In this document: positions 8,699 to 55,720 of the stretch, one piece after another
How positions within the stretch are numbered: position 1 is the stretch's first letter
Layout of the letters: each line of letters starts with the position of its first letter
Source of the DNA: Lytechinus pictus
Lineage: Eukaryota
Direction: 5' to 3'
Length of the DNA stretch: 64,000 bases
Assembly: GCF_037042905.1 (NCBI RefSeq)
Contig: NC_087250.1
Coordinates: forward strand, 21,020,001 to 21,084,000
Position numbers and translations under genes: made by a program
The notes under the pieces: generated by a model
Told to the model about the DNA's origin: nothing
Database searches by the model: none
What the model saw: only the letters and a program-made list of their open reading frames with translations

Positions 8699-8718
8699 TG
8701 ATTATTAAATAAACAAAG

Positions 8719-11700
8719 TTGAAATTTCTGTCGCTAAATGTAAGAGGTATTAGATCCAATTTTAAAAGGAATAAAGTTTTTCATTGGCTGGAAGATATTA
8801 ATGCAGATGTGATATTCATGCAGGAGACATATAGCTCTGATGATATAACTAATCTTTGGTCGTCTCAATGGAAAGGGGACATTGTATTTTCCCACGGGTC
8901 CCGTCATAGTTGTGGAGTAACTATACTTTTTAAATATGACTTGAACTATACAATTTTATACAAGCAAATTTCGAGTAAAGGAAGGTTTATCCTTTTATGG
9001 GTTAATATAGATAATAATGAATGTATTTTATTGAACATATATTTACCCACGGCAGATAAACACGCAGATCAAAAACAATTCTTCAAGAAAATAAATGATA
9101 ATTTGCTATTAATAAACAACATAAAAACTATACCGCTGGTGATTAGGGGAGATTTTAATACCATGTTAGATGTAGATTTGGATAGAATGGGTGGAAACCC
9201 TCACCTCCATAATGATATAGTGATACTATTAATGAGATACAAAATAATTTTGATTTAGTTGATATTTGGAGATTAAGGAATCCGTTATTGAGGAGATACA
9301 CTTAGCGGCAATGCCATCCGTTAATACAAAGTAGACTTGATCTTTGGTTTATTTCTGATAATCTACAAGATTTCATACAAAAAACTGATATTATACCCGG
9401 TATGAGTTCAGATCATTCTGCAATTATACTTATTATCAAATTATCACAAAAGAAACGACCTTTGTCAATCAACTGGAAATTTAATAATAGTCTATTAGAT
9501 GATGGACAGTTTCATGTAGAAATGTCTGCAAATATAGACAATTGGATAATCGAATCAGTTCAATTTGAAGACATACGTATGAGATGGGAATTTCCAAAAT
9601 ATAACATCCGTTTATTCTCTAGGAAATATAGTATAAATAGAGCTAAAATTTTAAGAGAGCAAAAAAAGGAGTTAGATGGGAAATTAAAACATCTTCAGAA
9701 TTTGGTAGATAAAGATGGTGAAAAATATGTTGACGAATATGAAAGGGCTAAGCTAGATTATGAAGCGCACATGGACCGTATAACTCATGGCATAATAATC
9801 CGGTCCCGCGCCATCTGGGTAGAATATGGAGAGAAAAACTGCAAATTCTTTTTAAACTTGGAAAAGGCCAACAAGGCAAGATCAACAATAAACAGACTAA
9901 AAGTAGGGGATGAAATTTTAACCGATACTTTGAAAGTGAATACTCGTATTAAGAATTTCTATGCAAACTTATATAAAACAGAACACCCCAAATCGTTTAG
10001 TAACTGTAAGTTTTTGGAGTCAAATTGTATACCCAAGTTATCGCCGAACCAGCGTGACTTATGCGAGAAAGAATTAACTCTTTCGGAATGCACTTCTTCT
10101 CTATTTGCCATGGCCAAGAACAAATCACCCGGTAACGACGGAATAACCGTCGAATTTTATTGTCATTTTCGAAGCAAACTTGGACCGTTGGTCGTAGATA
10201 CTCTTAATTATAGTTTTGAACGAGGAATGATGTCTACGCCACAGAGGAAGGTATAATTACACTAATAGCAAAAAAAAAAGGATAAAATGTTTATAGAAAA
10301 TTATAGGCCTATAACTCTCTTAAATGTTGATATCAAGATCGGCTCCAAAGCCTTAGCACAGAGACTGAAAAATATTTTACCATCTATCATTCACCCTGAT
10401 CAAGTAGCTTTTGTTAAAGATAGATACATAGGTGAAGCCGTGAGAACAGTACTTGAGACAATGGTCTATTATAATACTAGCCTTAAGCGTTTGGGCCGTA
10501 TTTTATTAAGCCTCGATTTTAAAAAAGCATTCGACCCATTGAACCACCAATTTTTGTCAGAAGTTTTGAAATATTTTAACTTTGGGAATAATTTTTGCAA
10601 TTTTGTCAATGTTCTTTACAAAAGTATTGAAAGCTGTGTGATGAACAATAACGTTTCCACTGTATATTTTGCGGTAGGAAAAGGAATACGACAGGGGGAT
10701 CTTCTATCTCCATATCTTTTTATGTTAGCTATAGAAACGCTAGCCATAAACATAAGAAAAAATGAAAACATTCAAGGCATAAAATTAAAAATTACTCATG
10801 AAATTAGGTTGTCTATGTACGCCGATATATGACATAACGGTGTATTTATCAAACTTTGAGTCGTATCATCACCTCACGGAAGCTCTAAATGATTTTCAAT
10901 TATGTTCCTCACGCTCACTGAATTATGATAAGACAAAAGCAATGTTTATAGGACAATTCAGTTTGCTAACCCATCTGTACCAATAGATATAAAAAAAATT
11001 ACGTTTTGACAATTCTTGGAATCAACATCTCTTATTCTTTTGAGGATAGAAGGGCGCAATTACAAAGAATTTTATCCAACATTAAATCTCAACTAAATAT
11101 ATGGAAGGCCAGGAATTTATCATTATACGGGAAAATCCAAATTGTGAAAACTTTTGCTACATATCAGCTGTTATATGCAGCCAGCATATTATCTATACCT
11201 TATCCATTTATTCATAAGGTGAACACATAACTGTATGAATTTATTTGGGGTGGTCCTGATAGAGTAAAACGTGAAGTGTTGGTTAAAGAATACGATGACG
11301 TGGGGTTAACGATGACTTGCATCAAATCGATTATTCAAGCTCAGAAAATTAAATGGGTTTCGAAATTTTTCTCCTCAACTTTGAAGGGCTGGAAAGATAT
11401 ATGTATAGAATTGTTGTCACCTGTCGGTGGAGAATACATTTTAATTGTAATTTTGATATGAAATATTTGAATATTGAAATGTCAAATTGGTTGATGGACA
11501 TTTTACAAACATGGTGTTTATTGGAAAGGAAAATAGATATTACAAATGAGTTTATATGGAACAATCAATATATCACATTTAAAGGAAAATCTATTTATAA
11601 ACCAAACAAAGAAAAGGGATTCACTAAAATTACTGATATGTTAAATGAATTTGGACGCCCACTACGCTGGAGGGAAGTGAAAGAAAATGGGTTAAAGTTT

Positions 11701-12470
11701 ACTGAGTATTTTGAATTGTTAGATTGCTATAAAATAATGCCAGTGAAATGGAAAGTTTTCTTTTTACAACAAAACTACCATCATCTTGTAAAAGAAACTG
11801 GGGATTTCCCTTCTCCGCTTTTATGTGAATCTACATTTAGACAAATTCAGAATATATCGACAAAGCAATTTTATCGCACTTTTTTAATATCAATAACTCC
11901 GAAACCTCCAAGTTGTTTACTCGCTTTAATCAACTTTACAACATCGACAAGCTGCAGACTTCCAAATCGTTCACTCTTCCATTACGAATCACTATTGACA
12001 CCTGACTTCGAATCACACACTATAACAATTTAAATAACTTAATACCGACAAATGAATGGCTCACAAAAATAGGATAGAAAACCAATGCATTATGCTCTTT
12101 CTGCAATGCGACACCCGAGATATTGGATCATTTGTTTTTTGCATGCCCTAAAATAGCATCCAATTGGAATGCGTTGCGTATGAGAGTGACTGATTTTAAT
12201 CCTAATTATTTCCTTTCACGAGATACTATTTTATTTGGATTACTACAACCATTGAGTCAATCCACCTTAGCATTTAATTTTATAATTTTACTTGGTAAAC
12301 AATTCATTTCGCGATGTAAATATCAAGAGACTCTCCCTAGTTTGAAACAATTTAATTATCATCTTATAAAGTTACTGAGGAAATTATTGCAAAAAAGAAA
12401 AACAAACTCAATAAACACAATGTAAAATGGCAAAACATAAACAAATATTTTTCCATTGCAGAAATTGTAA
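8719..12470 (+). pseudogene. LINE ORF2 (AP endonuclease, reverse transcriptase, C-terminal Cys/His motif), with frameshifts and stops
   Basis: SLNVRG, MQETY, GDFN, SDHSAI (APE); KSPGNDG, YRPITLLNVD, LDFKKAFD, GIRQGDLLSPYLF, YAD (RT); DHLFFAC. Confidence 0.95.
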
Positions 12471-27586: not shown

Positions 27587-29120
27587 CTTTAAACTTTAGT
27601 CTTTAGTTAGGACTAACCCTTTAAAGAAAAAAAAATCCGCTTTTAGCGGCTGATCGGCGAAAATGTGGATGAAAATGTTTTTTCCACCCGGCCCCCCAAC
27701 CCTAGTGGCGAAAGCTTGGTCCACTCCTTAAATATGTCTCAAGTTCACGATCACAAAATGTCCCTTTTCTGAAATATATCAAAAATATTCAATTAGCGCA
27801 TTGCGCTCTCACTATGAAATATCTCCCCCCCCCCCGAGATATGCTTCAATGTTTACAATTTTCCAGGTCAATAACAGCTCGCGCTTTGTGCTCGCATTAT
27901 AAATTCAGTTTAATGCGTACCGGGTTTCATGAATTTGTAACTATATTATTACTGGTATATATATTATTGTCTTTTAAAAATAACATTATTTGTTTAGACG
28001 TAGTGAGAGAGATACATATATTCATTTATTAAAACATATTTATATTGTCGCTATTGCATAGAATAGAACAAAAATACAACCGAAGTCTAGTTTTATAGTA
28101 ACTCACCAGTAGCGTAATGAGCCAACAACAACAATTGGAGGGGGCCAGACAAGGATTACATTTATTTTCCTTTCCTTTATTTATTTTTTTCATTGGTAGG
28201 GAGAATGGGGGGGGGGGGGGATCCGAGACCCCTAGCACGCCCCTCCCCCATCTGTACGCCAGTGATGATCATACTTTCGTTTGGAACAAATTGAAAGAAA
28301 AAAGATGCAAGGGTAGATAAGGCCCAAGATGTAAATAAAAATTATTGATAAAAATATCAATAATTATAATGCTGCTAAATATACAATAAATCAAGCGGTC
28401 ATCAATGAAAATAAACAGCGTGACAGAACAAAACGAGAAAGAGAGAGAGCCCGTGCGAATGTATGGCGTATAAGTTGCTGGAAAGCAGAAGATATATTGT
28501 GTCCAGCATCCCCCCCCCCCAATTTCTCTCCCCGCTCAAGACCGGAGTGAAACCAATGATAATAATATATAAACAAAAATCCAGATTCACAATTTCAATG
28601 GGGAGTGTGTCATTCCCCTTCTCCGTTACAATTTGTCAAGTGGCAGCGGCAGGGAGAACGATTTGTTTTGTTTTTTTAAGCAGAAAGCTGTGATGATAGG
28701 GGGAGAATGAAATAAATAAAATATTAACGAATAACAAGAAAAAAAAAACCAACATAACAATTTGTATCAGGATGAATATCTTATCATTTCAAACATAGAC
28801 CAACTTGGAGAAATAAGATGTTCATGCAATTATCACGGAGCAATTGTCGTATAATCGGAGCAGAAGTCGGCGGAGCAATTATCGGCGGAGCAATTTTCGG
28901 CGGAGCAGATGTCGACGGAGCAAATGTCGGCGGAGCAAATATCGGTGGAGCAAATATCGGCGGAGCAGATGTCGGCGGAGCAGATATCGGCGGAGCAAGT
29001 GTCGACGGAGCAACTGTCGGCGGAGCAACTGTCCGGAGCAATTGTCGGCGGAGCAGTTGTCGTATTTTGCGTAGCAATTGTCGGCGGAGCAGATGTCGGC
29101 GGAGCAATTGTCGGGTCACC

Positions 29121-29260: not shown

Positions 29261-30839
29261 ATTTTCCATGCAGGTCAGTCTGTTTCCCATCAGAATCACT
29301 ATATACATGCCACAATTAAGTTATCGACCTATTTACTTAAATTCCCTGACGTTATTGACATGGTTGATTGACCTCTAGCCCCTACATATATTTTACATGG
29401 CCATTATTTATCCTTATTTCAGAGTGAAATTATTAAACATCCAAGTTTTCATTACACATATTTACCTTTCTTTCTATTATTCACATATAAAATGTGAATA
29501 TAATGGATTAATTTCTTTTTGGGGGAATCATGCATGGATATATAAATATTTACTATATTTTGACCTTTGACTTTGGATATCAAAGGTGAAGGATTATTCT
29601 TTATGATTATTTTGTGCCTTTTTATCTTCTTGCAAAAATTGTTTTTTGACACCAAAATCACCAACATGCAGTGTTTTATCTAGGAGATACCATTAAACGA
29701 TATATATAGCCTATGTAAAAAAGTCAATGACCTTTGACCTTGAACTTTATTGATTATTATGCATTCTGGGTACTTAATCTAATTTCATTTGATCTTCCTG
29801 TATACCTCTGCATTTTGACACCAAGATCACCAAACTGCGTCTTTTCATCTCAGAGATACCGTATATGGTATATAATGCGAAAAAGGTAATTGACCTTTGA
29901 AAGGCTTTAACCTTGAATTTCATTGGTGAATGATCATTGTACGTACTTGATTTTATTTTATTTGATCTTCTTGTAAGAATATGTACATTTTGACAACAAG
30001 ATCACCAACCTGTGCCTTTTCATCTCAGATATACCATTATACGTATATGTTATATAATGTGAAAAGGGTCATTGACCTTTGAAAGGTTTTGACCTTGAAT
30101 TTCATGGGTGAATGAGCATTGTAGGTACTTGCTTTTATTTTATTTGATCTTCTTGTAAGAATCTGTGCATTTTGACACCATGATCACCAACCTGTAATAT
30201 TTTATCTGGGAGATACCATGATACAGAATATTTAAAAAGGTCATTGACCTTTAACCTTGAAAAAAACTTTCCCCAACCCGTATTCCTCCTAACTTTTTTG
30301 GTAAATGTTGACACCAATATCTTCTCAAATCAGTCAAAAAAACATTTCCAATAATTTTATTCCAGATGGTTACTAATTACGGGATACTCAAAATACAGGG
30401 CTCAAACACAACGGTTTGACAGAGCAAATTACCGCTTCTTTCCTATAACATCTCTTCCTCAGACGTGGTGTCAAACTAACTTGTTTCTTTTTGATAAATT
30501 TATATATTTGGCATTTGATTTGCACTTTTTAGATTTATTAGGAAGAAAAATTGTACATGTAGGCTACTGTACACCTTGGGGTTCTCACTTGCATAAAAAT
30601 GACAAAAAAAATCGCAAACGCCCTGATCAAGTAAACGCTCAAGCTGCTCTGACGGAGCTTGAAAAAAAAAACGCACGAGCGAAATGTTCCCTTTATGCAT
30701 AAAATTTTTAGCAATGACTTAATCGTGAAGCAAATGCTAGCAGGCAGTTAGTCATTGCTTGAGCTTACTAGCAAAAGCATTTGCTTGCTAATTTTTATAC
30801 ATACAGAATCAAGCAAAGCCTAGCAAAAGCAATTGCTAC

Positions 30840-31093
30840 TGTGACGAGATAATAATACATGTTTAAGTCTGGAGTACAGACTAGAAAAAAGGATATCGCT
30901 ATGTGAACAACGGACTTGTGAATCTGAATCGTCATGTGTACATTTTGTATATAAACTGTTTTAAACGATTTGACATGGCGTGGCTTGTTGCTTATTCATG
31001 AGTGCATGTCTGAATGGAGATTCAGGAGGTTTACGTTGGAGTTTGTCCAGGACAGGTAACAATAAGAGCTTGTCAGGACCAGCAAACGTAACA
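30840..31093 (+). repeat. 5' LTR, 254 bp
   Basis: tgtgacg...cgtaaca; identical by eye to 37364-37617. Confidence 0.97.
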
Positions 31094-31094
31094 G

Positions 31095-31112
31095 TGGGGG
31101 CTTGTCCGTGAG
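31095..31112 (+). promoter_or_regulatory. Primer binding site, tRNA-Pro type
   Basis: TGGGGGCTTGTCCGTGAG versus the known tRNA-Pro PBS TGGGGGCTCGTCCGGGAT. Confidence 0.85.
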
Positions 31113-31762
31113 TCAATCCTCCGCCTAACAGTGGGGGCTTGGTGAGAGTCGACCCAGAACTCTCGGCGTAAGTTGTATCGAAGTACCGTATAACGTATAA
31201 TGCTAGCGCCGGCAAAGTCGCATGAACGTATTATCGATGCGTGCAATCGTATTCAACGTGAGGATTGTCATTAGACATTTGCATGGGTGTGTGGATATCT
31301 CTGTCAGTGTGTTGTGTATGACGCTGTGTGGTGGCGCACAAGGTTGAGTATGGCGTGCCGTTTGTTCCATGAGGCACTTCCATGTATTTCAGTGTGTCTC
31401 GCTGTGCGATGTGTTTTGCTCACGTAGAGTTGAATGAAATTTGGGTTGATGATATTTCAACTGGTTAACCATTTTTTAAGGGTTGCTGTGTCGGTTGATG
31501 GAAACTGACAGTGTCGACTGGAGTCAAGTTGACAGTGTGGTTGGAAAAATTTTCAACTGGAGTGACCGAGTCAGGTTACCGTTTCTGTAGGTTGAGGTCA
31601 TATCTACAGGGTCAGCCAGGTCAGGTTGACATTTTCTTATGTGGTTGATATAATTTTCAACTGTGATAACCATATTGGTTATTGTCTTGGCTAAGAATTA
31701 AAGGTTTTCTTTAGCTGTTTCTAGTCTTTTCAGCGTTAAAGATTAGGGGTCTTTTGTTGACC

Positions 31763-33478
31763 ATGGCGGAATTTTCTTTGGACGATTTCGTTGATTCTCC
31801 CAGTGTTGAGAAGTTGCTGGTTCTGAAGAAGGTTCATCTCTTGGAGATTGCTCATCATTACCAGGTTGCTGAGGTAAGGAATACTTGGCGTAAATTAGAA
31901 ATTCTGAAAGCTGTAATTCAGTGGTTAGTGGAAGAGGAAGATGTTCTGCCACTTGAAGCTTTATCTAAGGTTCCGATTGAGTCTGTGAATGTGGACTTGA
32001 CAGAGAAATTGCGTTTGAAAGAGTTGGAACTAGAGATAGCGAAAGTTGAGCTTGAACGAGAACACGTAGTTTTGAGAAGGGAGCATGAGAATGCTAGAGA
32101 AAGAGAAGAAATTAGGCAAGTAAAGTCTGATTTTTATGTTGCGAAACATGTTCGAATGGTTCCCGTTTTTCAGGAGGGGGAGGAGATAGAGAAATATTTC
32201 CTTCACTTTGAAAAGGTAGCTGTTAGTTTGAGTTGGCCGCAAGAAAAATGGTCACACTTGTTACAATCTCAGTTGAAGGGTAAAGCTCGAGATGCTTATT
32301 CAGCTTTGTCAGTTGATGATGCGGGTCGTTATGACGTTGTTAAAGCAGCAGTGTTGCGTGCTTATGAGCTTGTACCGGAGGCGTACCGTCAACAATTTCG
32401 GAAAACACGCAAAGATGAGACCGAAACTCATCTTGAGTTTGCTAGGCGCAAACAACAGTTGTTTGATAGATGGAGTTCGTCACTCCATGCAGATAGCTTT
32501 GATAAGCTTAGAGAAATAATTCTTCTCGAAGAGTTTAAGCGTAGTGTGCATTTCGATGTTAGGTTGCATCTTGAAGAGCAGCAAATAGGAACGCTTAATG
32601 AAGCAGCGAAGCTTGCAGATGATTATGCGTTAACGCACAAAATCACAAACAAAAAATCAGATGAGACAAACAAATCTGGAAAGTGGAAAAACAAAAACAA
32701 AAATGGTGCTTCAGCACACAACAAGAAAGAAGTAAAACCACAATCTAAAGATGACGAGCAAGAAAAGAAATGCTATGCATGTCACAAGGTTGGTAATTTT
32801 AAAGCAAAGTGTCCTACACTTAAAGGAAAAACAAGTGAAACAAGTAATGCACATCCAAATGCATTTGTGAATAATTTGCTAAGTTCAGAGAGTAGGATTG
32901 AGCCAGTTAACTTAGAGAAAGTGAAAAAGCAATATGAACCGTTTGTTTCTGTAGGATATGTTTCCCTAGCTGGTCGTGTCGAAGCAAGGAAAGTGAAAGT
33001 GTTGCGTGATACTGGTGCTTCTCAGTCTTTGATCTTGGAGAGTGTGTTGCCTTTTGGTGAGAAATCTTGTGTTGGAGCTAGTGTTTTGCTCCAAGGAATA
33101 GGAGATGGCTTTGTAAAAGCACCCCTTCATGTGGTAGACTTGAAATCAGACCTTGTTTCTGGTAGTGTGGAAATGGCTGTGAGACAATCACTTCCGGTGG
33201 CAGATGTTTCCATCATTTTAGGGAATGATCTTGCTGGTGATAAAGTTGTGCCATGTCCAGTTGTGAGTGCTATTCCGTGTGAGAGTAGTAAAACAGAGCA
33301 GTTGGTTGCAGAATTTCCTACTGTGTTTCCGTCTTGTGCTGTAACTCGTTCGATGGCAAAGAAAGTAGAGTCTGAATCGAAGTCTAGTGAGCTAGATGAG
33401 GTTAACTTGGGAGATTCTTTCTTTTGTCGTTTGGTTGATGATGAATGTGAATCAAATGTGAATGAGGGTGCAGGATAA
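31763..33478 (+). CDS. gag: Gag (capsid/SCAN-like region, degenerate zinc knuckle) plus aspartic protease
   Basis: ccATGg start; CYACHKVGNFKAKC knuckle; LRDTGA protease motif; ILGND. Confidence 0.9.
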   Translation: MAEFSLDDFVDSPSVEKLLVLKKVHLLEIAHHYQVAEVRNTWRKLEILKAVIQWLVEEEDVLPLEALSKVPIESVNVDLTEKLRLKELELEIAKVELEREHVVLRREHENAREREEIRQVKSDFYVAKHVRMVPVFQEGEEIEKYFLHFEKVAVSLSWPQEKWSHLLQSQLKGKARDAYSALSVDDAGRYDVVKAAVLRAYELVPEAYRQQFRKTRKDETETHLEFARRKQQLFDRWSSSLHADSFDKLREIILLEEFKRSVHFDVRLHLEEQQIGTLNEAAKLADDYALTHKITNKKSDETNKSGKWKNKNKNGASAHNKKEVKPQSKDDEQEKKCYACHKVGNFKAKCPTLKGKTSETSNAHPNAFVNNLLSSESRIEPVNLEKVKKQYEPFVSVGYVSLAGRVEARKVKVLRDTGASQSLILESVLPFGEKSCVGASVLLQGIGDGFVKAPLHVVDLKSDLVSGSVEMAVRQSLPVADVSIILGNDLAGDKVVPCPVVSAIPCESSKTEQLVAEFPTVFPSCAVTRSMAKKVESESKSSELDEVNLGDSFFCRLVDDECESNVNEGAG

Positions 33479-33514
33479 ACTCAAAGTACAGAAGAGAAAA
33501 GTAAATGTGAACCA

Positions 33515-36292
33515 ATGCCGATAAGTAAGAGTAAGTTGTTAGAGGAGCAACAAAAAGATCCTCAGTTAGTATCCATGTTTGAGAGAGCGATCTCTGAAGA
33601 GGAGGCATTGACCGTGCCTGTTTGTTATTATACGAAGTCAGGTGTTTTGATGAGAAAGTGGAGGCCGATAGATGTTCCTGCTGATGAAGTTTGGAAAGAG
33701 GTCCACCAGATTGTAGTTCCTTCTACTTATAGGCCGGAAATACTTAGTCTTGCTCATGAAGCACCACTTGCAGGTCACTTGGGAGTCTATAAGACTCGGG
33801 AGAAAATCCTTTCTCATTTCTTTTGGCCGGGTTTACAAAAGGATGTTGCAAACTATTGCAGAAATTGTCATGTATGTCAGGTAGTAGGTAAACCGAATCA
33901 GAAAATACCAGTCGCGCCATTAAAACCAGTGCCAGCGTTCGATGAACCGTTTGCAAGAATTATCATAGATTGCGTAGGTCCGCTTCCGAGGACAAAAGCG
34001 GGTAATGAATTCCTGTTTACCATTATGTGCGCAAGTACCAGGTATGTCGAAGCGATTCCACTTAGACGTATCACCGCAAACAATGTGAGCAAGGCGCTGA
34101 TCAAGTTTTTCACGACTGTAGGATTACCGCGTACCGTTCAGTCTGATCAAGGATCAAACTTTATGTCGAAAGTCTTTAAGCAAGTGCTAGGGCAGTTAGG
34201 GATTGAACATGTAGTTTCTAGTGCATACCATCCTGAATCGCAAGGAGCACTTGAGAGATGTCATCAGACACTTAAGAACATGCTCAAATCATATTGTTTG
34301 GAGACAGAGAAACAATGGGATGAGGGAATTCCATTGTTGCTATTTGCTTTGAGAGAATCTGTTCAAGAATCTCTTGGTTTCAGCGCATTTCAGCTCGTGT
34401 ATGGACATGAAGTCCGTGGACCCCTCAGGTTGTTGAGTGAAAGGTTGTTGTCAGATGAGGAAGATGTAAATATGTTGGACTACGTATCGTCTTTCCGTGA
34501 GAGATTGCATCGTGCTTGTGAAGTTGCTAGGAAGAATTTGTCTGATTCTCAGGAGAAAATGAAGTCTTGGTATGACAAGAAGTCCAAGGAAAGGAATTTC
34601 AAGGCAGGTGATGAAGTTTTGGTTTTGTTACCAGTAGTTGGTAATGCTTTGCAGGCTAGATTTTCTGGACCGTATACCATTATGAAGAAAGTTGGTGATG
34701 TTGACTATGTCGTCAAAACTCCAGATAGAAGAAAGAAAAAGCGTGTATGTCATGTGAATATGATAAAAGCTTATGTTCAAAGAGATGATGAAAAGAGAGC
34801 ACAACCAGTGTTGAGTGCTGTAGAATCTGAGCTGAATGATGAAAGTGAAGAGATGTGTAAAATTGAGAGAGATGAACCATGTGTGAAATTGAAAAATTCA
34901 GAAGATCTAACACACATCAATGACAAACTAACCCACTTGTCTGAGAAGGAGAGGAGGGATGTGAAAGAGCTGTTGAATGAGTATCCGCAGATATTTGCAG
35001 ATATCCCATCTCGTACTGATGTTGTTGAACATGATGTTGATGTGGGAGATACCGCCCCAATCAAGCAGGCACCTTATCGTGTTAACCCAGTAAAGATGAA
35101 GAATCTTGAAAAAGAAATAGAGTACATGCTGCAGAATGGCATCATCGAGCCAAGTAGCAGCGCATGGTCGTCACCATGCATCTTAGTTCCGAAACCGGAT
35201 AAGTCGTATCGTTTCTGTACCGACTACAGAAAAGTCAATTCGAGTACAAAGACCGATTCTTTCCCGATACCGCGCGTAGATGATTGTATTGACCGTATAG
35301 GCAAGGCGAAGTATGTAAGCAAATTCGATCTGCTTAAAGGCTATTGGCAGATTCCGTTGACTAAGAGAGCGCAAGAAATCTCTGCATTTGCTACACCTCA
35401 AGGCCTATTCCATTACACTGTGATGCCATTCGGTATGAAAAATGCGCCGGCTACATTCCAAAGACTTGTGAATAGTCTTGTCTCTGGTCTTGAAGGCTGT
35501 GAAGCTTACATAGATGACTTGATTGTGTATAGTGAAGATTGGAAAGTTCATGTACAAAGAATCAGAGATTTGTTCAGGAGATTGTCTGATGCCAAATTGA
35601 CAGTCAACTTGGCAAAGAGTGAGTTTGGAGGTGCTACTGTTAGTTTCTTGGGTCACGTTGTTGGTTCAGGTCATGTTCGACCACTCTCAGCGAAGGTAGA
35701 AGCTATTCTGGCGTTCCCGACTCCAACCAACCGGAAGGAACTGATGAGGTTTCTTGGCATGGCAGGCTACTACAGACGATTCTGCCATAACTTCTCTGAT
35801 GTCGTCGCCCCGCTGACCAATCTACTACGGAAGGAGGTGAAGTTCATCTGGTCCAGTGACTGTCAGAGTGCTTTTGACAAAGTGAAAGCACTCCTATCTA
35901 CCAATCCTGTACTGGTGGCTCCAGATTTTAGTCAGCCATTCTCTCTGATGGTTGACGCTAGTGATGTGGGTGCCGGAGCTGTTCTTACGCAGAAAGATGA
36001 ACAGGGAACAGACAGGCCCAAGTTTTCGAGCAGTCAGAGAAATTATTCCACTGTGGAGAAGGAAACTTTGGCGTTAATCTTTGCACTGCAACACTTTGAA
36101 GTGTATGTGAGTGGATCTCAACATGCATTGGACATATGGACAGATCATAATCCTTTGACGTTTCTAAGTAAGATGAAAAACAAAAATCAAAGACTTACAA
36201 GGTGGAGTCTACTGCTCCAAGAGTACAACTTGAACATTAGACATCTACCGGGAAAAGACAACATTATTGCAGACACATTGTCGCGAGTGTAA
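33515..36292 (+). CDS. pol: Pol: integrase, then reverse transcriptase and RNase H
   Basis: HHCC (AHE..GHLG..CHVC); DDE (IDCVGP, SDQG, LERCH); GPY; RT FDLLKGYW, MPFG, YIDD; RH VDAS, EKE, TDH, ADTLSR. Confidence 0.95.
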   Translation: MPISKSKLLEEQQKDPQLVSMFERAISEEEALTVPVCYYTKSGVLMRKWRPIDVPADEVWKEVHQIVVPSTYRPEILSLAHEAPLAGHLGVYKTREKILSHFFWPGLQKDVANYCRNCHVCQVVGKPNQKIPVAPLKPVPAFDEPFARIIIDCVGPLPRTKAGNEFLFTIMCASTRYVEAIPLRRITANNVSKALIKFFTTVGLPRTVQSDQGSNFMSKVFKQVLGQLGIEHVVSSAYHPESQGALERCHQTLKNMLKSYCLETEKQWDEGIPLLLFALRESVQESLGFSAFQLVYGHEVRGPLRLLSERLLSDEEDVNMLDYVSSFRERLHRACEVARKNLSDSQEKMKSWYDKKSKERNFKAGDEVLVLLPVVGNALQARFSGPYTIMKKVGDVDYVVKTPDRRKKKRVCHVNMIKAYVQRDDEKRAQPVLSAVESELNDESEEMCKIERDEPCVKLKNSEDLTHINDKLTHLSEKERRDVKELLNEYPQIFADIPSRTDVVEHDVDVGDTAPIKQAPYRVNPVKMKNLEKEIEYMLQNGIIEPSSSAWSSPCILVPKPDKSYRFCTDYRKVNSSTKTDSFPIPRVDDCIDRIGKAKYVSKFDLLKGYWQIPLTKRAQEISAFATPQGLFHYTVMPFGMKNAPATFQRLVNSLVSGLEGCEAYIDDLIVYSEDWKVHVQRIRDLFRRLSDAKLTVNLAKSEFGGATVSFLGHVVGSGHVRPLSAKVEAILAFPTPTNRKELMRFLGMAGYYRRFCHNFSDVVAPLTNLLRKEVKFIWSSDCQSAFDKVKALLSTNPVLVAPDFSQPFSLMVDASDVGAGAVLTQKDEQGTDRPKFSSSQRNYSTVEKETLALIFALQHFEVYVSGSQHALDIWTDHNPLTFLSKMKNKNQRLTRWSLLLQEYNLNIRHLPGKDNIIADTLSRV

Positions 36293-37352
36293 ACTGAATC
36301 CTTAACTTTGAACAATTTGATAACTTCGAATTCGTGTGAACTTTGAAGTCTGGACAATGGAAGTTTAACGTCGTGTGTATCAATGCGAAATTCGGACAAT
36401 GAAAGTTTGATATCATCAATGTGATAAACAGTGAACGTTTGACATCGTGTTATGTCATCGTGACGTTTGAGCAGTGAACGTTTGACAGCGTGTTAATTCA
36501 TCGTGACATTTGAACTGTGAACGTTCGATATTGTGTATAATCAAGGTGAAATTTGGAAACTGCACTTTCTGTGAACTGTGGAACTTGAAACTTATTTCAT
36601 CATGTGAATTTATACCTAAATGCTTACTTGTCATCTCAATTTAATGGATACTCCGGAATGGACTCTATACCATGTTTGATTTGAAAGTGAACTGAACTTG
36701 TGTTTTTTCTGGATTTCTGGATGCCAACTGTGCTCATGTTTACACTATATCTTGGATCAAGTAATCTGAACCTACTGTGAATCTTCATAAACATTCAATG
36801 AACCCTAACTGAAGCGATGATGTTGAACTTCGTTGAACTGAAACTATAATTGGAAGAAGATATTGGAAATCAGAAGTTTGAACTTACATCTTGAATGATT
36901 TCTCATATTATTGACTTTTGGACTCAGTGAAGCAATGCTTTTTATATTGCTTTTCTCATCACACTTGGAAGTAATATCATGTATTTTTTATGTTGATTAT
37001 TCATGTGAAATTTCTTATGACTATGTTTATTACGAACATACATGTATTTCAGAACATGCGTGTACCTTTTGATGAATAAGTTTTACTACATGCATGCGCT
37101 ATCAATACATGTCTGTTTTACTCATTTCATTATACTATGTTTTATATTATGCTTTTCTTTTGCCAAAGTATGCGAAATTGCTGCACAAAAAGCGTGAAAT
37201 TGAAAAAGGGCATTTCGATGTGTTTTAATAGATTAACTGTGTTTGGTTAAGCGCTATATTCATTGTGATAATGTTCGTTTATATTAACAAGCAAAATTTG
37301 AGTTGCGAACATACTTATTGCAATTTCTTTGAAAAATTATAAGCATGTTTTT

Positions 37353-37363
37353 AAGGAAGGGAG
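37353..37363 (+). promoter_or_regulatory. Polypurine tract
   Basis: aaggaagggag directly before the 3' LTR. Confidence 0.9.
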
Positions 37364-37617
37364 TGTGACGAGATAATAATACATGTTTAAGTCTGGAGTA
37401 CAGACTAGAAAAAAGGATATCGCTATGTGAACAACGGACTTGTGAATCTGAATCGTCATGTGTACATTTTGTATATAAACTGTTTTAAACGATTTGACAT
37501 GGCGTGGCTTGTTGCTTATTCATGAGTGCATGTCTGAATGGAGATTCAGGAGGTTTACGTTGGAGTTTGTCCAGGACAGGTAACAATAAGAGCTTGTCAG
37601 GACCAGCAAACGTAACA
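37364..37617 (+). repeat. 3' LTR, 254 bp
   Basis: Direct repeat of 30840-31093. Confidence 0.97.
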
Positions 37618-43700: not shown

Positions 43701-43757
43701 TATATATATATTTGTGTGTGTGAGGGTGTGTGCGTGTGTGTGTATGTATATATATAT

Positions 43758-43840
<83 letters not shown>
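43701..43840. repeat. (TA)n/(TG)n/(CA)n microsatellite
   Basis: Read directly from the sequence. Confidence 0.95.
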
Positions 43841-43842
<2 letters not shown>

Positions 43843-43986
43843 GTTATACATGTACAACAGTTTTGGCAACTCTTTTTATTTTAGATATTGTAAAGAAGTG
43901 AATGAAGATAACAATGGTAGGCGTAGCTTAAATCAAGGTTACCCAGAGCTATCTACCCTTTGGAAAAATTGGCGATGCCGAAAAAA

Positions 43987-44058
43987 TGTCTCTGCCGGGA
44001 ATCGAACCCGGGCCCCCAGCTTTGAACGCCGGTGCCTTAACCACTAGACCACAGAGAT
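43987..44058 (-). tRNA. tRNA-like unit, anticodon TCA (copy 1)
   Basis: 72-nt cloverleaf, perfect T stem, 1:72 mismatch, oligo-T downstream. Confidence 0.55.
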
Positions 44059-44224
44059 ATGGTATACGTGTACCAAAGCAATAGCTTTGATCCAGCTGAG
44101 GCATGGCGGCTTGTCATTGTTCAAAACCCACCTTCACCCGACAAAGGAAATTATAATTGGTATAGTGTCGAAAATCTGTCTATCTGACGGTCAATCGGAT
44201 CGGGGTCGCCCTAGCCACTAACCC

Positions 44225-44296
44225 GTCTCTGTGGTCTAGTGGTTAAGGCACCGGCGTTCAAAGCTGGGGGCCCGGGTTCGATTCCCAGCAGAGACA
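44225..44296 (+). tRNA. tRNA-like unit, anticodon TCA (copy 2)
   Basis: Acceptor gtctctg/cagagac; A box tggtctagtgg; anticodon arm ccggc-gtTCAaa-gctgg; B box ggttcgattcc; T5 follows. Confidence 0.55.
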
Positions 44297-44637
44297 ATTT
44301 TTCGGCATCACCAATTTTTCTGAAGGGTAAATAGCTCTGGGGAACCTTGATTTAAGCTACGCCTACCATTGTTCTCTTCATTCATTTCTTTACAATATTT
44401 AGAATAAAAAGAGTTGCCAAAGCTGTTGTAGATGTATAACTTCACACATTTGTATACTTTCTCCCATACGTGTACTGTATCAAAGCAATAGCAATAGCTT
44501 TGATCCAGCTGAGGCATGGCGGCTTGTCATTGTTCAAAACCCACCTTCACCCGACAAAGGAAATTATAATTGGTATAGTGTCGAAAATCTGTCTATCTGA
44601 CGGTCAATCGGATCGGGGTCGCCCTAACCACTAACAC

Positions 44638-44709
44638 GTCTCTGTGGTCTAGTGGTTAAGGCACCGGCGTTCAAAGCTGGGGGCTCGGGTTCGATTCCAG
44701 GCAGAGATA
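44638..44709 (+). tRNA. tRNA-like unit, anticodon TCA (copy 3)
   Basis: As copy 2 with different T-stem substitutions; T7 follows. Confidence 0.5.
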
Positions 44710-44914
44710 TTTTTTCGGCATCACCAATTTTTCCAAAGGGTAGATAGCTCTGGGGAACCTTGATTTAAGCTACGCCTACCATTGTTCTCTTCATTCATTT
44801 CTTTACAATATATATATATATATTGCGCAGAGTAGGCCTAGATGTTTTACACATCGTTTCGGCCTCGTAATCATTAAAGGGGGAACAAACATGCACGATA
44901 CGAGGCTGTGATAC

Positions 44915-45559
44915 TGGGCAGATGCATAAAAGTAGCAATTGCTGGCAAGCAATTGCTTCAAGCGCAAGTAAACGATCATGTCTCAGCAAATTACCGCTTG
45001 GTGTCAAACTACCTTGTTTCTTTTTGATAATTTTATATATTTAACATTTGATTTGCACTTATTATTTAAATGTTATGAATAATTATGTAAGATTTATTAT
45101 GTTTATTGTCATGTTCCAAATGTAGACTGCATTATTCATTTTTACAATGTGTTGTCTATCATTTTGCACGGCATGTAAACAAGAAGAATGTCCAATTATG
45201 GACAATAAATAAATACTTATACTTATTAAATATGTATTTGTAGGCTACGGTATACCTTGGTGTTTTCTCTTAGGTGCATAAACATGATTAAAAAACACCC
45301 TGATCAAGCAAAAGCTGAAGCTATTCTGACCGTGCTTGAAAAAAAAACCAAGCAAGTACTTAAACACGCAAGCGAAATGTTCGCTTTATGCGTACGATTT
45401 TTAGCAATAGATTAATCGTCAAGGAAATGCTAGCAGTCAGCGATTTCTTGAACTTACTGGCAAAAGCATATGCTCGCTCATGTTTATGCATACGAAATCA
45501 ATCAAAAGCAAGGCAAAAGCCTCGAAAAAGCAATTGCTACTTTTTATGCATGTGACCCA
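44915..45559. mobile_element. MITE, about 640 bp
   Basis: TIR tgggcagatgcataaaagtagcaattgct / agcaattgctactttttatgcatgtgaccca; absent from the paralogous block at ~40890; relatives at 19168-21070 and 30420-30839. Confidence 0.85.
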
Positions 45560-52105: not shown

Positions 52106-53140
52106 CTAAAGCCCCAAATTCATAGAAATTGAAAGACAATCCTTCATATTGTCTTTAATATATCCATCCTTAGCAGTCTCCGACCTCCACCTACCTTGTT
52201 TCTTAAACAACCTGTCTGGAACACCAAAGTTCGCTGCTGCTGTGGCTCCGCCACTTCGGAGGCTATGCATGCCAAAACTCTTTGGATTCAACCCTACTTT
52301 CGCCAACGCCTCTCTCAATAATTCTAAACATCTAGTATAAGACAACTGTCCACGTCTTAACTTGTAACTATTACTGGATTTACAGTAATTTAGAGGCCTA
52401 AAAAGAAATACTTCATCAGAATTTGTAAATTTTGTGATTTATTTCAATTTGAATAATAAAAACAGAATTATAAAAAAAAGAAATACTTCATCAGAGGCAT
52501 CGTTAAGCCCCGCTGCAATCAAATATTTCCTCAAAGCTAATACGGGGCAGGTGGGGAATTTGTAGCACCTATAAGAACCCATGCTCCTTGCCTGTAAATA
52601 TCGGTTTTACTTTTCATGATGAAAGTATTCACATGAGACAAATACAAGTCTAAATCACATTTACGAATATGTATCATTTCATCAAATCGTAGAATGCCTG
52701 CGTAGGAAATCAAAACCATAGTACATAATCGAATATCTAATAGACTCGTTGAAGATCCATACTTCTCAACAACTGCTTTCAAAATGTCTGGGGTTATAAC
52801 TTCTTTCTTAACGATCGGTTTGTTTCGTAATTTCTTTAAACATTGTAAAACAATATGTATGAACTTGCGATCACAGGGATTAACATTCATCCTTGGCTTG
52901 CAGTCAAAATGCCACTTAATGGCGTAAAAAGCCGATTCTATCCTCGAATAAGGAGCTTCTCTTTGATACAAATGAATAAGATAGCGACTAATATCTTCTG
53001 GTTCTGCTGTGTCAGAATTTACTTTATTTTGCTTACACTAATCTCTCCAGGTATTCAACGCTCTGTTGTATTTACTCATAGTGTTATCAGCTCTCGAAGC
53101 TGTCAAGACCTTGTTCAAAGTTATATCATATCCTTCATGG
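52106..53140 (-). pseudogene. Tyrosine recombinase (phage-integrase family), disrupted
   Basis: GILRFDEM, KSKTDIYRQG, HSLRSGGATAAA, QGRWRS, KDGY. Confidence 0.92.
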
Positions 53141-53959
53141 AGAGAATTTCTGGATTTAAGAAAATTTAAACAAAACTTATAAGCTGGTATATATTTATCT
53201 CAACACAATATATTCAAATTGTGATAAATTCTCAAGTTCAGTCATTCTTATCAAATTCTCAAAATTTAATCACTTCTAATACGTTTTACAGCCATGACAG
53301 CAAAATTAAACATTAACTATGCAGCTATCCTCAAACCAGGTGGTTTTATATTTTCACTAAAATTTCAGTATGAAATTCATTAGATCACAATTCCATATCA
53401 TAATTCGTTTCAATCGTCTTGAAGGCTTAGCAAAACAATAGCTTTGGGATTCATTTCCTTTGCGAAAATGTTTATTTTTGCCTTAAAACACTTGCAAAAA
53501 ACTTTCTGAAACATTTCATTCACAAGAATTCTGTAATTTTGAGACTTTGAATGTTTTCAATCATCACCAATTTCTTCATTCTGAGCTCCGCCGCCAGTAA
53601 ATTATAACTAATTTGAGAATGAAATCTCATATCAATTCCTTATCAACCTTTACGATGGTTATCCTTTTACATAATCATAACATTCTCCAATTTCCATCAC
53701 CACTTCTTTGCTCTGCAGCATAAGTGGATCCTAGCTATGCAGCTATCTGCCATGCGGCCGTGTAAAAATTACATGTTGCATTCCAACAGTATAATTTTGA
53801 ATTAACCTCCATCAAATGGATTTATTACATACCAGCATTCATGTCAGCCATCTCTCACAAACCGTTTTTTTTTTTATTTTTTATTTTTTTTATTATTATT
53901 TCTGCCTTGAACGAAAATTCCTTGAGGATTATCAATTTTGAAGTATTCAGAGAATAAGG

Positions 53960-55720
53960 AACGAAAATCACTTTGTTCAGAGAAAAGAATCGGCCAGAAG
54001 GGTGCAGACGGCCAGAAGGGAACAACCAAAGTCCCCCTAGCAGAACAAAACCTTCAGATGCTTAAGTACTTGCCCTATACATGCTATACATTCGATAGGT
54101 GGAACCAACCAATTATTCTCGCCCGACCAATCACATGAGAAGGGATCAACATGATCTATTAGGGGACACCAATATTTAGAATTGAACTTCTTAATTTTGA
54201 AATTAAAATCGTCCGCAAGTCTGTCCACAGTGTGAGGGCCCCAGATTTTGTCCAAAAATCCGACAAATTCATCTGACACACCCCAATCATCAAAATCTAT
54301 CATGCGACTTAATGCATCTGCAAAACGGTTCTCCTCTCTGGGAGCCCAATGAACGTGAAGACTAATGTTGTTTCTTTTACACAACTCAAAGATGTGTAAA
54401 CTCATCTCATGCAATTCTGCAATCATACTTCCTTTATTTACAATCGATCCTACTCCTTTATTATCACAGAGGACCTTGACAGTTTTATGTCTCATGTGAG
54501 ATACAACTGTTTGCAGTGTCATACTTACTGACTTGAGTTCTCTCCAAGTGGAGCTTTTAACCATTTCAAACTCAAACCAATCTCATCCCATTTCATGCCT
54601 GCGCACTCAGAAACCCAGGCCCCGCAGCCTGATGGACTTGCATCAGAATAGATGAAAGTCTGTGGAACTGAATAAGCAGAAATAATGTTTACGTTAAGAA
54701 TATGCAAATTCTTCTCCAGAAGAAGAACACGAATATTAATTCATCACTATTGATCACATTATGTCCTATCCCAATGTACCCTCCGGATGATTTCGTGATG
54801 CATAAATCTGGTTTTAATTTGAGTAACTGTGCCAAACACTGGATACAATGTATCTTTCCAACTATAACTACGATCCTTCGTTCTGAAACCTCAGGCAATT
54901 CTGCTTGAAATGAATCTGAACATAACTCAAGATCCTTCATCCTTCTTTCAGTAATCTTTATATAAGCTACTCTGCTTTCCCGTGGTATTCCTAACCAATC
55001 CAAACACTGGACAGGAGTCCATTGAGATATTTCTCAACATTTGGTATCAAACCTGCTTCAAGTAAGTCATTTTTCACCGTCTTGACCATAGTATCATACG
55101 AATCAAAGGAAGCAGCACTACCCAATCATCTATATACAAAAAAAAAATGAAAATACCATTTCTATACGCCAATGATTAACGATAGGCTTAAATCGTGTAA
55201 TGAAAACAAAGGTAGCTGTTGCCAACCCAATGACAACACCTAAAAGGAGAAAAACCTTGTACCACTACCAAAATCCCAACTAAAGCCTACAATTTTTCAT
55301 GCACTTGAAAAATGTAATAATGATGATAACCTTGCTTAAGTTCAAAGGAAAGCATAAAATCTCCCTGTTTTAAATAAGACATGACTACATTCCAGTCTTC
55401 AAGTATAATAGTGTTCTTCCACAAGTGTTAGTTGACATAACGTTAACCAAGAATCAGTCTCTTTTTATATCTGAACTCTGAATTGAATCTGAAAGGGGGT
55501 AACATCATGGGGTGCAGTGGTGGATTCAACAACCAAACCCTTTTTAATAATAATTCGTTAATGGCTTCAGAAACGAAATCGGGATCGATGTCAATGCTGA
55601 CTTATCATCTTATTGTAAGGTAATTTGTAACCATGTTCATTGACATCTACAACAAATTGAGATGCATCAGTTGATTTCCAAATTGTAAGGAAGCATTCAA
55701 TCTACCTTTAACCAAAGGTT
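53960..55720 (-). pseudogene. RT, RNase H and DIRS-type adenine methyltransferase-like domain, frameshifted
   Basis: YSDAS, SSTWRELK, CDN, HWAPREENRFADALSR (RH); GPHTVDR..FNSKYWCP..DWSGENNWLVPP and LVVPFWPSAPFWP (MT). Confidence 0.85.

What the first reader, a model, noticed from the sequence alone, without database searches (positions are those of the whole stretch)
43836..44810. Three tRNA-shaped genes with a UCA (UGA-reading) anticodon in a mobile-looking repeat
Seen: each 72-nt unit folds as a cloverleaf with the loop gtTCAaa, A and B boxes and an immediate oligo-T terminator. The mismatches differ between copies, so the consensus is fully paired. There is no long variable arm, so this is not tRNA-Sec; G32 is atypical. 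Inference: a repeat that carries a Pol III unit shaped like an opal suppressor tRNA, used as a promoter or processing signal, or possibly for readthrough. A SINE head would normally lack the terminator and the intact acceptor stem.
Basis: partly seen in the sequence, partly recalled or inferred. Interest (0 to 1): 0.7.

Follow-up and report, generated by a model that had tools for sequence, protein, structure and literature searches.

The report
tRNA-bearing palindromic Penelope-type repeat
The three stop-codon-reading "tRNA genes" are real tRNA-shaped sequences, but they are passengers of one insertion of a very abundant 413-base jumping repeat, whose unit turns out to be a worn mirror-image of itself that is predicted to hide the tRNA fold and leave only the anticodon hairpin exposed; nothing here shows that they read stop codons.

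Summary
Observation confirmed: three 72-nt cloverleaves with a TCA anticodon, G32, a 4-nt variable loop and T5-6. They belong to one insertion of a 413-bp non-coding repeat: an inverted, 5'-truncated copy with a ~50-bp tail, head-to-head with 1.8 tandem units, in (TA)n, the layout described for Penelope-like/Naiad insertions. Public contigs show the family is very abundant; TCA and G32 look fixed, but so does the trailer, and inserted copies decay without compensation. New here: the ~160 nt before each tRNA is a decayed antisense copy of tRNA plus trailer lacking the anticodon arm, so long RNA is predicted to form a rod with only the anticodon hairpin exposed. That argues against RNase P/Z cutting of concatemers. 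Acceptor and anticodon arms look like tRNA-Arg, with Arg identity lost. Best reading: a non-autonomous Penelope-type element with an internal Pol III module and an inherited UCA (0.58); working opal suppressor 0.06. No mature RNA, CCA or partner enzyme was shown. This scan apparently noted the same family before at other loci of this genome (at least seven notes; identity judged from their descriptions).

The parts
43743..43806 (.). (TA)n microsatellite, left side of the probable target site
   Evidence: TRF 43743-43807, 32.5 copies
43807..43840 (.). (TG)17; its right end (43835-43840) is the element's own terminal CACACA read on the minus strand, probably expanded by slippage
   Evidence: TRF; copy A matches unit B's tail to 44448 = 43835; 20 contigs of run X1 also leave the unit at 44448 into CA-rich sequence (table 7)
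43835..44057 (-). Copy A: inverted, 5'-truncated copy running from tRNA position +2 through the trailer and a ~50-bp tail
   Evidence: Inverted repeat I2, 223 nt, 94%
43987..44058 (-). tRNA-like gene A, anticodon TCA at 44025-44023, T6 at 43986-43981
44058..44063 (.). 6-nt inversion junction, partly a snap-back copy of the start of unit B
   Evidence: imperfect palindrome read (inference)
44064..44224 (+). Leader arm of unit B: decayed antisense copy of tRNA plus trailer, lacking tRNA positions 1-8 and 26-44 (the anticodon arm)
   Evidence: 104 of 140 aligned positions identical, score above all 1000 shuffles in 3 of 3 settings; alignment
44225..44296 (+). tRNA-like gene B; G32 at 44256, anticodon TCA at 44258-44260, T5 at 44298-44302
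44297..44397 (+). Trailer of unit B, ending at the position where copy C meets the (TA)n target
44398..44465 (+). Tail and spacer between palindromic arms; start of the one complete 413-bp unit (44398-44810); no PBS or polypurine tract in either orientation
   Evidence: spacing 413 (D8); go-back joints
44466..44637 (+). Leader arm of unit C (antisense arm; the polymorphic part of the family)
44638..44709 (+). tRNA-like gene C; anticodon TCA at 44671-44673, T6 at 44710-44715; three private changes at 44685, 44699, 44708
   Evidence: the other letter has 98.9-99.7% of depth in run X1
44710..44810 (+). Trailer of unit C, 3' end of the insertion
44808..44823 (.). (AT)8, right side of the probable target site; a target-site duplication cannot be read inside the microsatellite

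Best explanation
A non-autonomous, Penelope-like (probably Naiad/Neptune-type) retroelement of 413 bp that lands in (TA)n. SHOWN: the insertion layout, the high abundance, the tandem joints, the internal palindrome, the fixed UCA loop. INFERRED: (1) the unit arose when a tRNA-headed ancestor (tRNA plus ~100-nt trailer, acceptor and anticodon arms of tRNA-Arg type) was inserted head-to-head, and that palindrome became the unit; the antisense arm then decayed and lost its anticodon arm. (2) The sense tRNA module is kept by selection on the element's source copies, most likely as its internal Pol III promoter; most transcripts would stop at T5-6 as a short tRNA-like RNA, and occasional read-through of tandem copies gives multi-unit RNA that starts near tRNA +1 and folds as a rod. 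(3) An autonomous Penelope-like enzyme copies such RNA into a TA tract; here one ~990-nt template primed twice (twin priming) explains A, B and C. (4) UCA is a one-letter derivative of an Arg UCU/UCG anticodon that was present in the founder and multiplied with it; the RNA is probably uncharged or poorly charged and does not decode to a meaningful extent.
For: Layout matches the published description of PLE/Naiad insertions feature by feature: partial tandem, adjacent inverted 5'-truncated copy, tail on one end only, (TA)n target (PMC8557442 sections 6 and 15; locus). Run X1: 4417 contigs laid, summed depth 0.96e5-1.08e6 across the unit against 0-31 at 44839-44922; 10 of 12 rows shown in table 5c go back from 44776-44818 to 44406-44412; 7 of 15 joints shown change strand. 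Copy A ends at unit position 44448 and B starts at 44466, a 17-nt gap, as twin priming predicts (definition in PMC2837659). Each copy has 3-5 private changes per 174 nt, none compensatory, same rate in tRNA and trailer. Palindrome and rod. Arg likeness: L145 tRNA-Arg(CCG) 53 of 72 identical and all six differing stem pairs still pair; acceptor shared with tRNA-Arg(TCT) in L133, L134 and the human Arg-TCT-4-1 printed in PMC12217144; 18 of 24 letters of the anticodon arm region shared with the Arg-CCT-2 printed in PMC13338051 (counted by eye). Arg determinants A20 and U/G36 are lost, Ser/Sec determinants (long arm, G73) absent (PMC9976931). Precedent: all predicted tRNA-Sup-CTA genes of two rust genera come from Helenus elements (PMC10886601).
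Against: No autonomous partner was found: 0 of 16 window ORFs scanned hit a GIY-YIG family, and no genome is held. No target-site duplication can be read. A T5-6 terminator directly behind the tRNA works against unit-length Pol III transcripts; read-through is assumed. A promoter needs only A and B boxes, yet 21 of 21 pairs are kept while the antisense arm differs at 9 of 44 aligned tRNA positions; under even decay of both arms this happens in 3-6% of simulations at 10% change per arm (1-10% over the rates tried), a hint of RNA-level selection that the promoter model does not explain. None of the 14 breakpoints of the 7 inversion joints shown lies within 5 nt of tRNA +1, so the +1 start of this locus is not shown to recur; 25 joints were not shown. 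Dual priming by two RNAs gives the same layout. D loop, variable loop and T loop are Glu/Gly-like (Gly-TCC 54 of 72), so the parent is not settled. Transcription is not shown.
Confidence: 0.58

Rival explanations
1. Ribozyme-free retrozyme: the tRNA module is a processing signal. Long (Pol II or read-through) transcripts are cut to unit length by host tRNA enzymes, either RNase P/Z at the tRNA ends or an anticodon nuclease at the hairpin that the rod exposes, and are ligated to circles that a Penelope-like RT copies into concatemers.
For: Unit size and tandem, permuted copies resemble non-LTR retrozymes (PMC7229834 abstract and passages, which also report RtcB ligation); no hammerhead core CUGANGA on either strand and no ribozyme family among 17 Rfam matches at E up to 10. 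The rod is strong (z -5.6 to -7.3, 0 of 100 or 200 shuffles), more stable on the tRNA-sense strand (-108.3 vs -92.2) and keeps the anticodon stem at P 0.99-1.0. 15 common leader variants disturb the rod less than type-matched changes (mean ddG 0.65 vs 1.99, P 0.012).
Against: For RNase P/Z: acceptor, D and T stems have P 0.0 in long RNA. The 15 variants are not independent (two sites counted twice, subfamily structure) and 4 of the 9 at paired leader sites break the pair. No strand bias in wobble-compatible differences (9 vs 6, p 0.61). Arm-to-arm gene conversion in DNA would give a similar pattern; the DNA also folds (z -3.5). Loss of a hairpin from the antisense arm can be a plain RT or polymerase skip. 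No circle or unit-length RNA was seen.
Confidence: 0.16
2. A satellite-like repeat with an inert tRNA relic, spread by DNA-level events (unequal crossover, rolling circle, foldback repair); neither boxes nor fold are under selection, the family is simply young.
For: Copies are only about 2.3% from the majority sequence and decay neutrally; trailer is as uniform as the tRNA (0 of 101 polymorphic sites); no expression shown.
Against: Short insertion with truncated, inverted head and recurring 3' ends in microsatellites (table 7) fits retrotransposition better; the sense arm stayed a perfect cloverleaf while its mirror arm lost about a quarter of its letters.
Confidence: 0.14
3. A working opal suppressor: Pol III makes a short pre-tRNA that is matured, charged (tryptophan is the best fit) and reads UGA, for the host or for a partner retroelement.
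For: Intact boxes, 21 pairs, immediate terminator, acceptor stem forms with up to 10 nt of leader (P 0.94-1.0). G1-C72, A73, C35 and A36 match eukaryotic/archaeal Trp determinants except C34 (PMC9976931). TCA unchanged in all listed differences of runs X15 (12 of 12 shown) and X20 (7 of 7 shown) and no variant shown in X1 or X11. Naiad elements of clams and spiders carry in-frame UGA.
Against: G32 in 0 of 107 comparison tRNAs; C34 is a major Trp determinant in yeast and plants; fixation extends to the trailer; copies accumulate pair-breaking changes freely; a host would be expected to purge or silence thousands of active suppressor genes (my inference). Naiad UGAs are read as selenocysteine via SECIS, for which this RNA lacks the features. 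The one in-frame stop between two retroelement ORFs checked in this window is TAA. No CCA end among 15 loose ends shown of 409 (weak, contigs).
Confidence: 0.06
4. A Helenus/TRIMp3-type miniature LTR element (B and C as LTRs) or a selenocysteine tRNA variant.
For: Two direct repeats each with a tRNA-like part, ends reading TGTA...TACA; ARAGORN labels them SeC from the anticodon.
Against: No PBS or polypurine tract in either orientation, no 4-bp TSD, inverted third copy with tail; the TGTA/TACA ends are the edges of the palindrome. Rfam's best model is RF00005, and the long arm and G73 are missing.
Confidence: 0.03

Closest known systems
Penelope-like elements, Naiad/Chlamys clades and their non-autonomous families (PMC8557442; abstract, sections 6, 7, 15 and passages read)
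   Same: Partial tandem, adjacent inverted 5'-truncated copy, one-sided tail, (TA)n target, no hammerhead, very high copy number.
   Different: No ORF, no partner identified; carries an intact tRNA gene and is itself a decayed palindrome. 'tRNA' occurs once in that paper, for the selenocysteine tRNA. Tail here is ~50 bp against 30-40 bp there.
Animal non-LTR retrozymes (PMC7229834, abstract and passages; preprint 10.64898/2026.07.22.740005, part 1 of 5 and passages)
   Same: Short non-coding tandem units of similar size, proposed non-autonomous derivatives of PLEs.
   Different: Defined by a type I hammerhead in each unit, which is absent here; the preprint has 0 occurrences of 'tRNA'.
Helenus / TRIMp3 and Cassandra (PMC10886601, parts 1-4 of 6 read)
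   Same: Small-RNA gene inside a short non-autonomous retroelement as probable Pol III promoter; source of spurious suppressor-tRNA predictions; tandem arrays in some families.
   Different: Those have LTRs, PBS, PPT and 4-5-bp TSDs and mostly conserve only the boxes; this one has PLE-type ends and a fully paired cloverleaf with terminator.
tRNA-derived SINEs (SINE2)
   Same: tRNA-derived internal promoter; the inferred ancestor was tRNA-headed.
   Different: tRNA is internal, followed at once by T5-6, and there is no LINE-type tail or readable TSD.
Cytosolic tRNA-Arg (TCT/CCT/CCG types; L133, L134, L145 and two printed mammalian tRNAs)
   Same: Acceptor stem, end of D stem, anticodon-stem pattern, C35.
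   Different: U20, G32, A36; D, variable and T loops of Glu/Gly type.

Membership tests
Non-autonomous Penelope-like element | Partial tandem (pLTR) arrangement | tested here: met
   335-bp truncated copy followed by a full 413-bp unit; go-back joints in run X1
Non-autonomous Penelope-like element | Inverted 5'-truncated copy adjacent at the 5' end | tested here: met
   Copy A; 7 of 15 joints shown in X1 change strand
Non-autonomous Penelope-like element | Tail of 30-40 bp on one end only | tested here: met
   A runs about 50 bp past the point where C ends; slightly longer than published
Non-autonomous Penelope-like element | Microsatellite target, (TA)n for Naiads | tested here: met
   2 contigs of X11 also end in TA at 44823
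Non-autonomous Penelope-like element | Target-site duplication | tested here: inconclusive
   Unreadable inside (TA)n, as also reported for Naiads
Non-autonomous Penelope-like element | 3' end shared with an autonomous RT + GIY-YIG family | not testable with these tools
   No genome held; none in 16 window ORFs scanned; a 1,702-nt contig continuing from the trailer could not be retrieved
Non-LTR retrozyme | Type I hammerhead in every unit | tested here: not met
   No CUGANGA on either strand; no ribozyme among 17 Rfam matches at E up to 10
Non-LTR retrozyme | Unit-length circular RNA | not testable with these tools
   Only contigs were served
Helenus / TRIMp3 | PBS and polypurine tract between two LTRs | tested here: not met
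   Inter-repeat segment read in both orientations
Helenus / TRIMp3 | 4-bp TSD (animals) | tested here: inconclusive
   Microsatellite on both sides
tRNA-Sec | Long variable arm, extended acceptor stem, G73 | tested here: not met
   4-nt variable region, 7-bp acceptor, A73; requirements from PMC9976931
Functional opal suppressor tRNA | Intact cloverleaf, boxes, terminator, UCA | tested here: met
Functional opal suppressor tRNA | Full identity set for one synthetase and a normal anticodon loop | tested here: not met
   Arg A20 and U/G36 lost, Trp lacks C34, Ser lacks the arm; G32 in 0 of 107
Functional opal suppressor tRNA | Purifying selection on gene copies / stem covariation | tested here: not met
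   4 private changes in B and C, none compensatory; same rate as trailer. Older subfamilies could not be read.
Functional opal suppressor tRNA | Mature CCA-ended, charged RNA and UGA read-through | not testable with these tools
   RNA run X20 gave 3 low-depth contigs that cross the tRNA ends
tRNA-derived SINE (SINE2) | tRNA head at the 5' end, no internal terminator, LINE-type tail | tested here: not met
   tRNA internal, T5-6 directly behind it

The most novel reading that the evidence does not exclude
A ribozyme-free, viroid-like retroelement that runs on host tRNA machinery: its tRNA gene is the promoter, its long RNA folds into a rod that shuts off the cloverleaf and displays only the UCA anticodon hairpin, and that loop is the site where a host anticodon nuclease and tRNA ligase cut and circularise the unit in place of a hammerhead, with Penelope-like RT copying the circles into the genome. 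The odd G32/UCA loop would then be selected as a non-decoding recognition loop.
Probability: 0.13. Interest if true: 0.78.

Novelty: new variant of a known kind. Interest (0 to 1): 0.47.

Why it matters
At the least it explains a large crop of false 'suppressor' or 'SeC' tRNA calls in this genome and extends the idea of small-RNA-gene-driven mobile elements from LINE- and LTR-dependent ones to Penelope-dependent ones. It bears on an open question stated in PMC8557442: how hammerhead-less Penelope-like elements make and process their RNA. The palindromic unit also records the head-to-head insertion that built it. If the exposed anticodon hairpin is a cut site, it would be a new route to circular retroelement RNA; if the short RNA is charged, an animal would carry a mobile multi-copy opal suppressor. 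Both are cheap to test.

Tried and rejected
Genome-wide copy survey: not possible, no genome held; replaced by one laying of public contigs, whose depth is not a copy number. Exact tRNA pattern in metagenome contigs and viral contigs: 0 matches. Earlier-findings look-ups by sequence, by words and near the locus: nothing. Hammerhead, HDV-like or SECIS motifs: none. tRNA-Sec, Helenus/TRIM, plain SINE: rejected above. Recurrent truncation at tRNA +1: not supported by the 7 joints shown; 2 of them fall at 44710-44712, right behind the tRNA, which may be an alignment effect of copy C's private changes; one breakpoint in each arm in 5 of 7, p 0.21. Strand bias of wobble pairs: none. A second B-box-like word in the leader (44119, 44532) and one made by the anticodon loop itself (44256, 44669) were noted (12 such words in the rest of the window); suggestive only. 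A UGA-interrupted retroelement in the window: the stop checked is TAA. RNA run X20 (3 contigs, depth 2.9-4.4, share 0.12) is no evidence of expression or habitat. Literature: ten searches returned no description of this family or of a tRNA-bearing Penelope-type element; the library lacks most subscription papers and Repbase, and I read no supplements (those of PMC8557442 and PMC10886601 hold consensus sequences that could bear on novelty). Tandem tRNA-derived repeats of amphibians (newt PolIII/TAN, Xenopus satellite 1) are recalled, not found.

Full report
1. Observation. The three units are there. ARAGORN tRNA genes in the window, all TCA, and Rfam RF00005 gives 54.8, 54.7 and 47.6 bits, the only gathering-level hits in 64 kb. 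Each is 72 nt with 7/4/5/5-bp stems, loop GTTCAAA, a 4-nt variable region and A73; each breaks one different pair and the majority of three keeps 21 of 21. T6, T5 and T6 follow. The 'SeC' label rests on the anticodon only; the long arm and G73 that serylation needs (PMC9976931, passages) are missing. G32 was seen in 0 of 107 placeable comparison tRNAs (biased set).

2. Setting. The window looks like repeat-rich animal DNA: L1-like, Gypsy and DIRS-like ORFs, no GIY-YIG hit in the 16 ORFs scanned of 51 listed. That the host is a sea urchin comes only from earlier AI notes; I did not test it. No genome is held.

3. Anatomy. The repeat unit is 413 bp. Units B and C are a partial tandem, 44064-44810. 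Copy A (43835-44057, minus strand) is joined head-to-head to B through 6 junction letters, begins at tRNA +2, and runs about 50 bp beyond the point where C ends. Both outer ends meet TA tracts. This is the layout described for Penelope-like and Naiad insertions: partial tandem, adjacent inverted 5'-truncated copy, one-sided tail, (TA)n preference, TSD often unreadable (PMC8557442 sections 6 and 15). In unit coordinates A ends at 44448 and B begins at 44466. An inversion with a short internal deletion is the mark of twin priming (PMC2837659, passages), so A, B and C can come from one ~990-nt, 2.4-unit template whose 5' end lay at the tRNA start (inference; dual priming is not excluded). The copies carry 4, 5 and 3 private changes in 174 nt (plus the junction base in A), consistent with one insertion and later decay.

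4. The family. Twenty of 24 listed public runs hold the stretch or part of it, under four organism labels and one marine metagenome. I laid 4 of them on 44398-45000. Run X1 gave 4417 contigs, summed depth 0.96e5-1.08e6 over the unit and 0-31 at 44839-44922; this shows great abundance but is not a copy number. Tandem joints recur (10 of 12 rows shown in table 5c, 45 not shown), as do inversions (7 of 15 joints shown, 25 not shown) and the two 3' ends (20 contigs leaving at 44448 into CA-rich sequence; 2 in X11 ending in TA). The variant table showed 40 of 61 rows. In X1, 27 of 32 differences at 3% or more are shown; setting aside five sites private to copy C (97% or more of depth), 19 of 240 leader/tail positions are polymorphic at about 6% or more, against 0 of 72 in the tRNA (p 0.009) and 0 of 101 in the trailer (p 0.001). 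That the 5 unseen rows are below about 6% is my inference from the table; if all five lay in the tRNA the contrast would vanish (p 1.0). By my count of change types all G changes of X1 are shown, so G32 has no variant at 3%; an unseen minor variant in TCA cannot be excluded. In X15 (12 of 12 differences shown) and X20 (7 of 7) none touches the loop. In X11 (another organism label; 20 of 36 shown) the trailer differs at 44741 (79% vs 4%) while the main contigs keep the same tRNA. So the anticodon is fixed, but no more than the trailer, and inserted copies decay evenly (4 of 216 vs 8 of 306, p 0.77).

5. The leader in front of each tRNA is an antisense copy of tRNA plus trailer: 104 of 140 aligned positions identical in B, global score above all 1000 shuffles in 3 of 3 settings for B and, narrowly, for C; local alignment is weaker (1 and 26 of 2000 shuffles reach it). 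The antisense arm lacks tRNA positions 1-8 and 26-44, that is the anticodon arm (3 of 3 settings in B; the gap is placed at 36-54 in C). Folding gives a rod of 90 leader-to-arm pairs, z -5.6 to -7.3, 0 of 100 or 200 shuffles as stable, in both B and C, with the anticodon stem extruded at P 0.99-1.0 and acceptor, D and T stems at P 0.0; forcing the cloverleaf costs 27 kcal/mol. The acceptor stem survives up to 10 nt of leader and is lost at 15. These are predictions. The simplest history is that a tRNA-headed ancestor was inserted head-to-head, the same event type seen at this locus, and the product became the unit. Evidence that the rod is selected is modest: common leader variants are milder than matched random ones (P 0.012, 15 non-independent variants), but wobble differences show no strand bias. 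The sense arm stayed perfect while the mirror arm changed 9 of 44 aligned tRNA letters; even decay would allow that in 1-10% of simulations.

6. Parent tRNA. A search fixing 17 letters of the anticodon arm gave 11 loci, 7 with a called tRNA of mixed isotypes; one, L145 tRNA-Arg(CCG), is 53 of 72 identical, 11 of 14 in the acceptor, with all six differing stem pairs still paired. A search on the acceptor start gave 3 loci, 2 of them tRNA-Arg(TCT) with the same acceptor stem, and the human Arg-TCT-4-1 printed in PMC12217144 shares acceptor and T arm. I put Arg at about 0.55, Glu/Gly or a chimera at 0.45; host tRNAs were not available. From Arg, UCA is one change at position 36. A20 and U/G36, the Arg determinants, are gone; G1-C72, A73, C35, A36 fit Trp except for C34 (PMC9976931, passages).

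7. Mechanism. Best reading (0.58): a non-autonomous Penelope-type element whose tRNA module is its Pol III promoter, with read-through concatemers as templates and UCA as a founder trait. Weak points are the terminator, the missing partner and the over-perfect cloverleaf. Rivals: tRNA-enzyme processing of a rod or circle (0.16), inert satellite (0.14), working suppressor (0.06), TRIM or Sec (0.03). RNA data are not informative: X20 gave 3 contigs of depth 2.9-4.4 that cross the tRNA ends, and no CCA loose end is among the 15 shown of 409.

8. Known systems and novelty. It works like a non-autonomous PLE and meets four layout features, but membership waits on a partner. It is not a retrozyme (no hammerhead), not Helenus (no PBS/PPT; PMC10886601 parts 1-4 of 6), not tRNA-Sec, not a plain SINE. 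Helenus is the precedent for element-borne 'suppressor' calls. Ten paper searches found no description of such a family; Repbase and supplements were not seen. Papers seen only as search listings are not relied on; PMC11231383 passages added nothing on G32. Earlier notes of this scan describe what seems the same 404-407-bp family at other loci; my sequence look-ups did not return them, so identity is judged from wording. They gave me the Penelope, retrozyme and Helenus leads, which I then tested on this locus. Verdict: real, a new variant of a known kind, interest 0.47.

Noticed in passing
window 30840-37617: Gypsy-type element with two identical 254-bp terminal repeats, a SCAN domain in the first ORF and integrase placed before RT; the two long ORFs are in one frame, split by a single TAA stop.
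   Followed up: partly
run X11, contig 15 (matches window 44710-44802): A 1,702-nt contig of depth 130 continues about 1.6 kb beyond the trailer; a candidate autonomous or longer partner element. Sequence not retrievable.
   Followed up: no
L135:301-374: A viral contig carries a tRNA with CTA anticodon, called tRNA-Pyl by ARAGORN, next to tRNA-Ala and tRNA-Asn.
   Followed up: no
window 44119, 44256, 44532, 44669: B-box-like words GTTCRANNC in the leader and in the anticodon loop itself, on the same strand as the true B box; G32 creates the second one.
   Followed up: partly
window 44478-44511: Short perfect hairpin (8-bp arms) near the start of the leader, with a 6-bp duplication in copy C.
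   Followed up: no
window 21946-22466, 24057-24622, 28826-29114, 29642-30241: Inverted pairs of 15-bp and 182-bp tandem arrays 4.5 and 7.7 kb apart, possibly nested foldback or MITE-type elements.
   Followed up: no
window 8713-12425 and 52106-55033: Broken L1-like LINE (APE endonuclease, RT) and DIRS-like remnant (tyrosine recombinase, RNase H-like).
   Followed up: no
L001-L132 subset (73-nt matches, e.g. L002, L013, L119): Two groups of decayed tRNA-like heads with variable stems in metagenome contigs, probably SINEs of the host animals.
   Followed up: no
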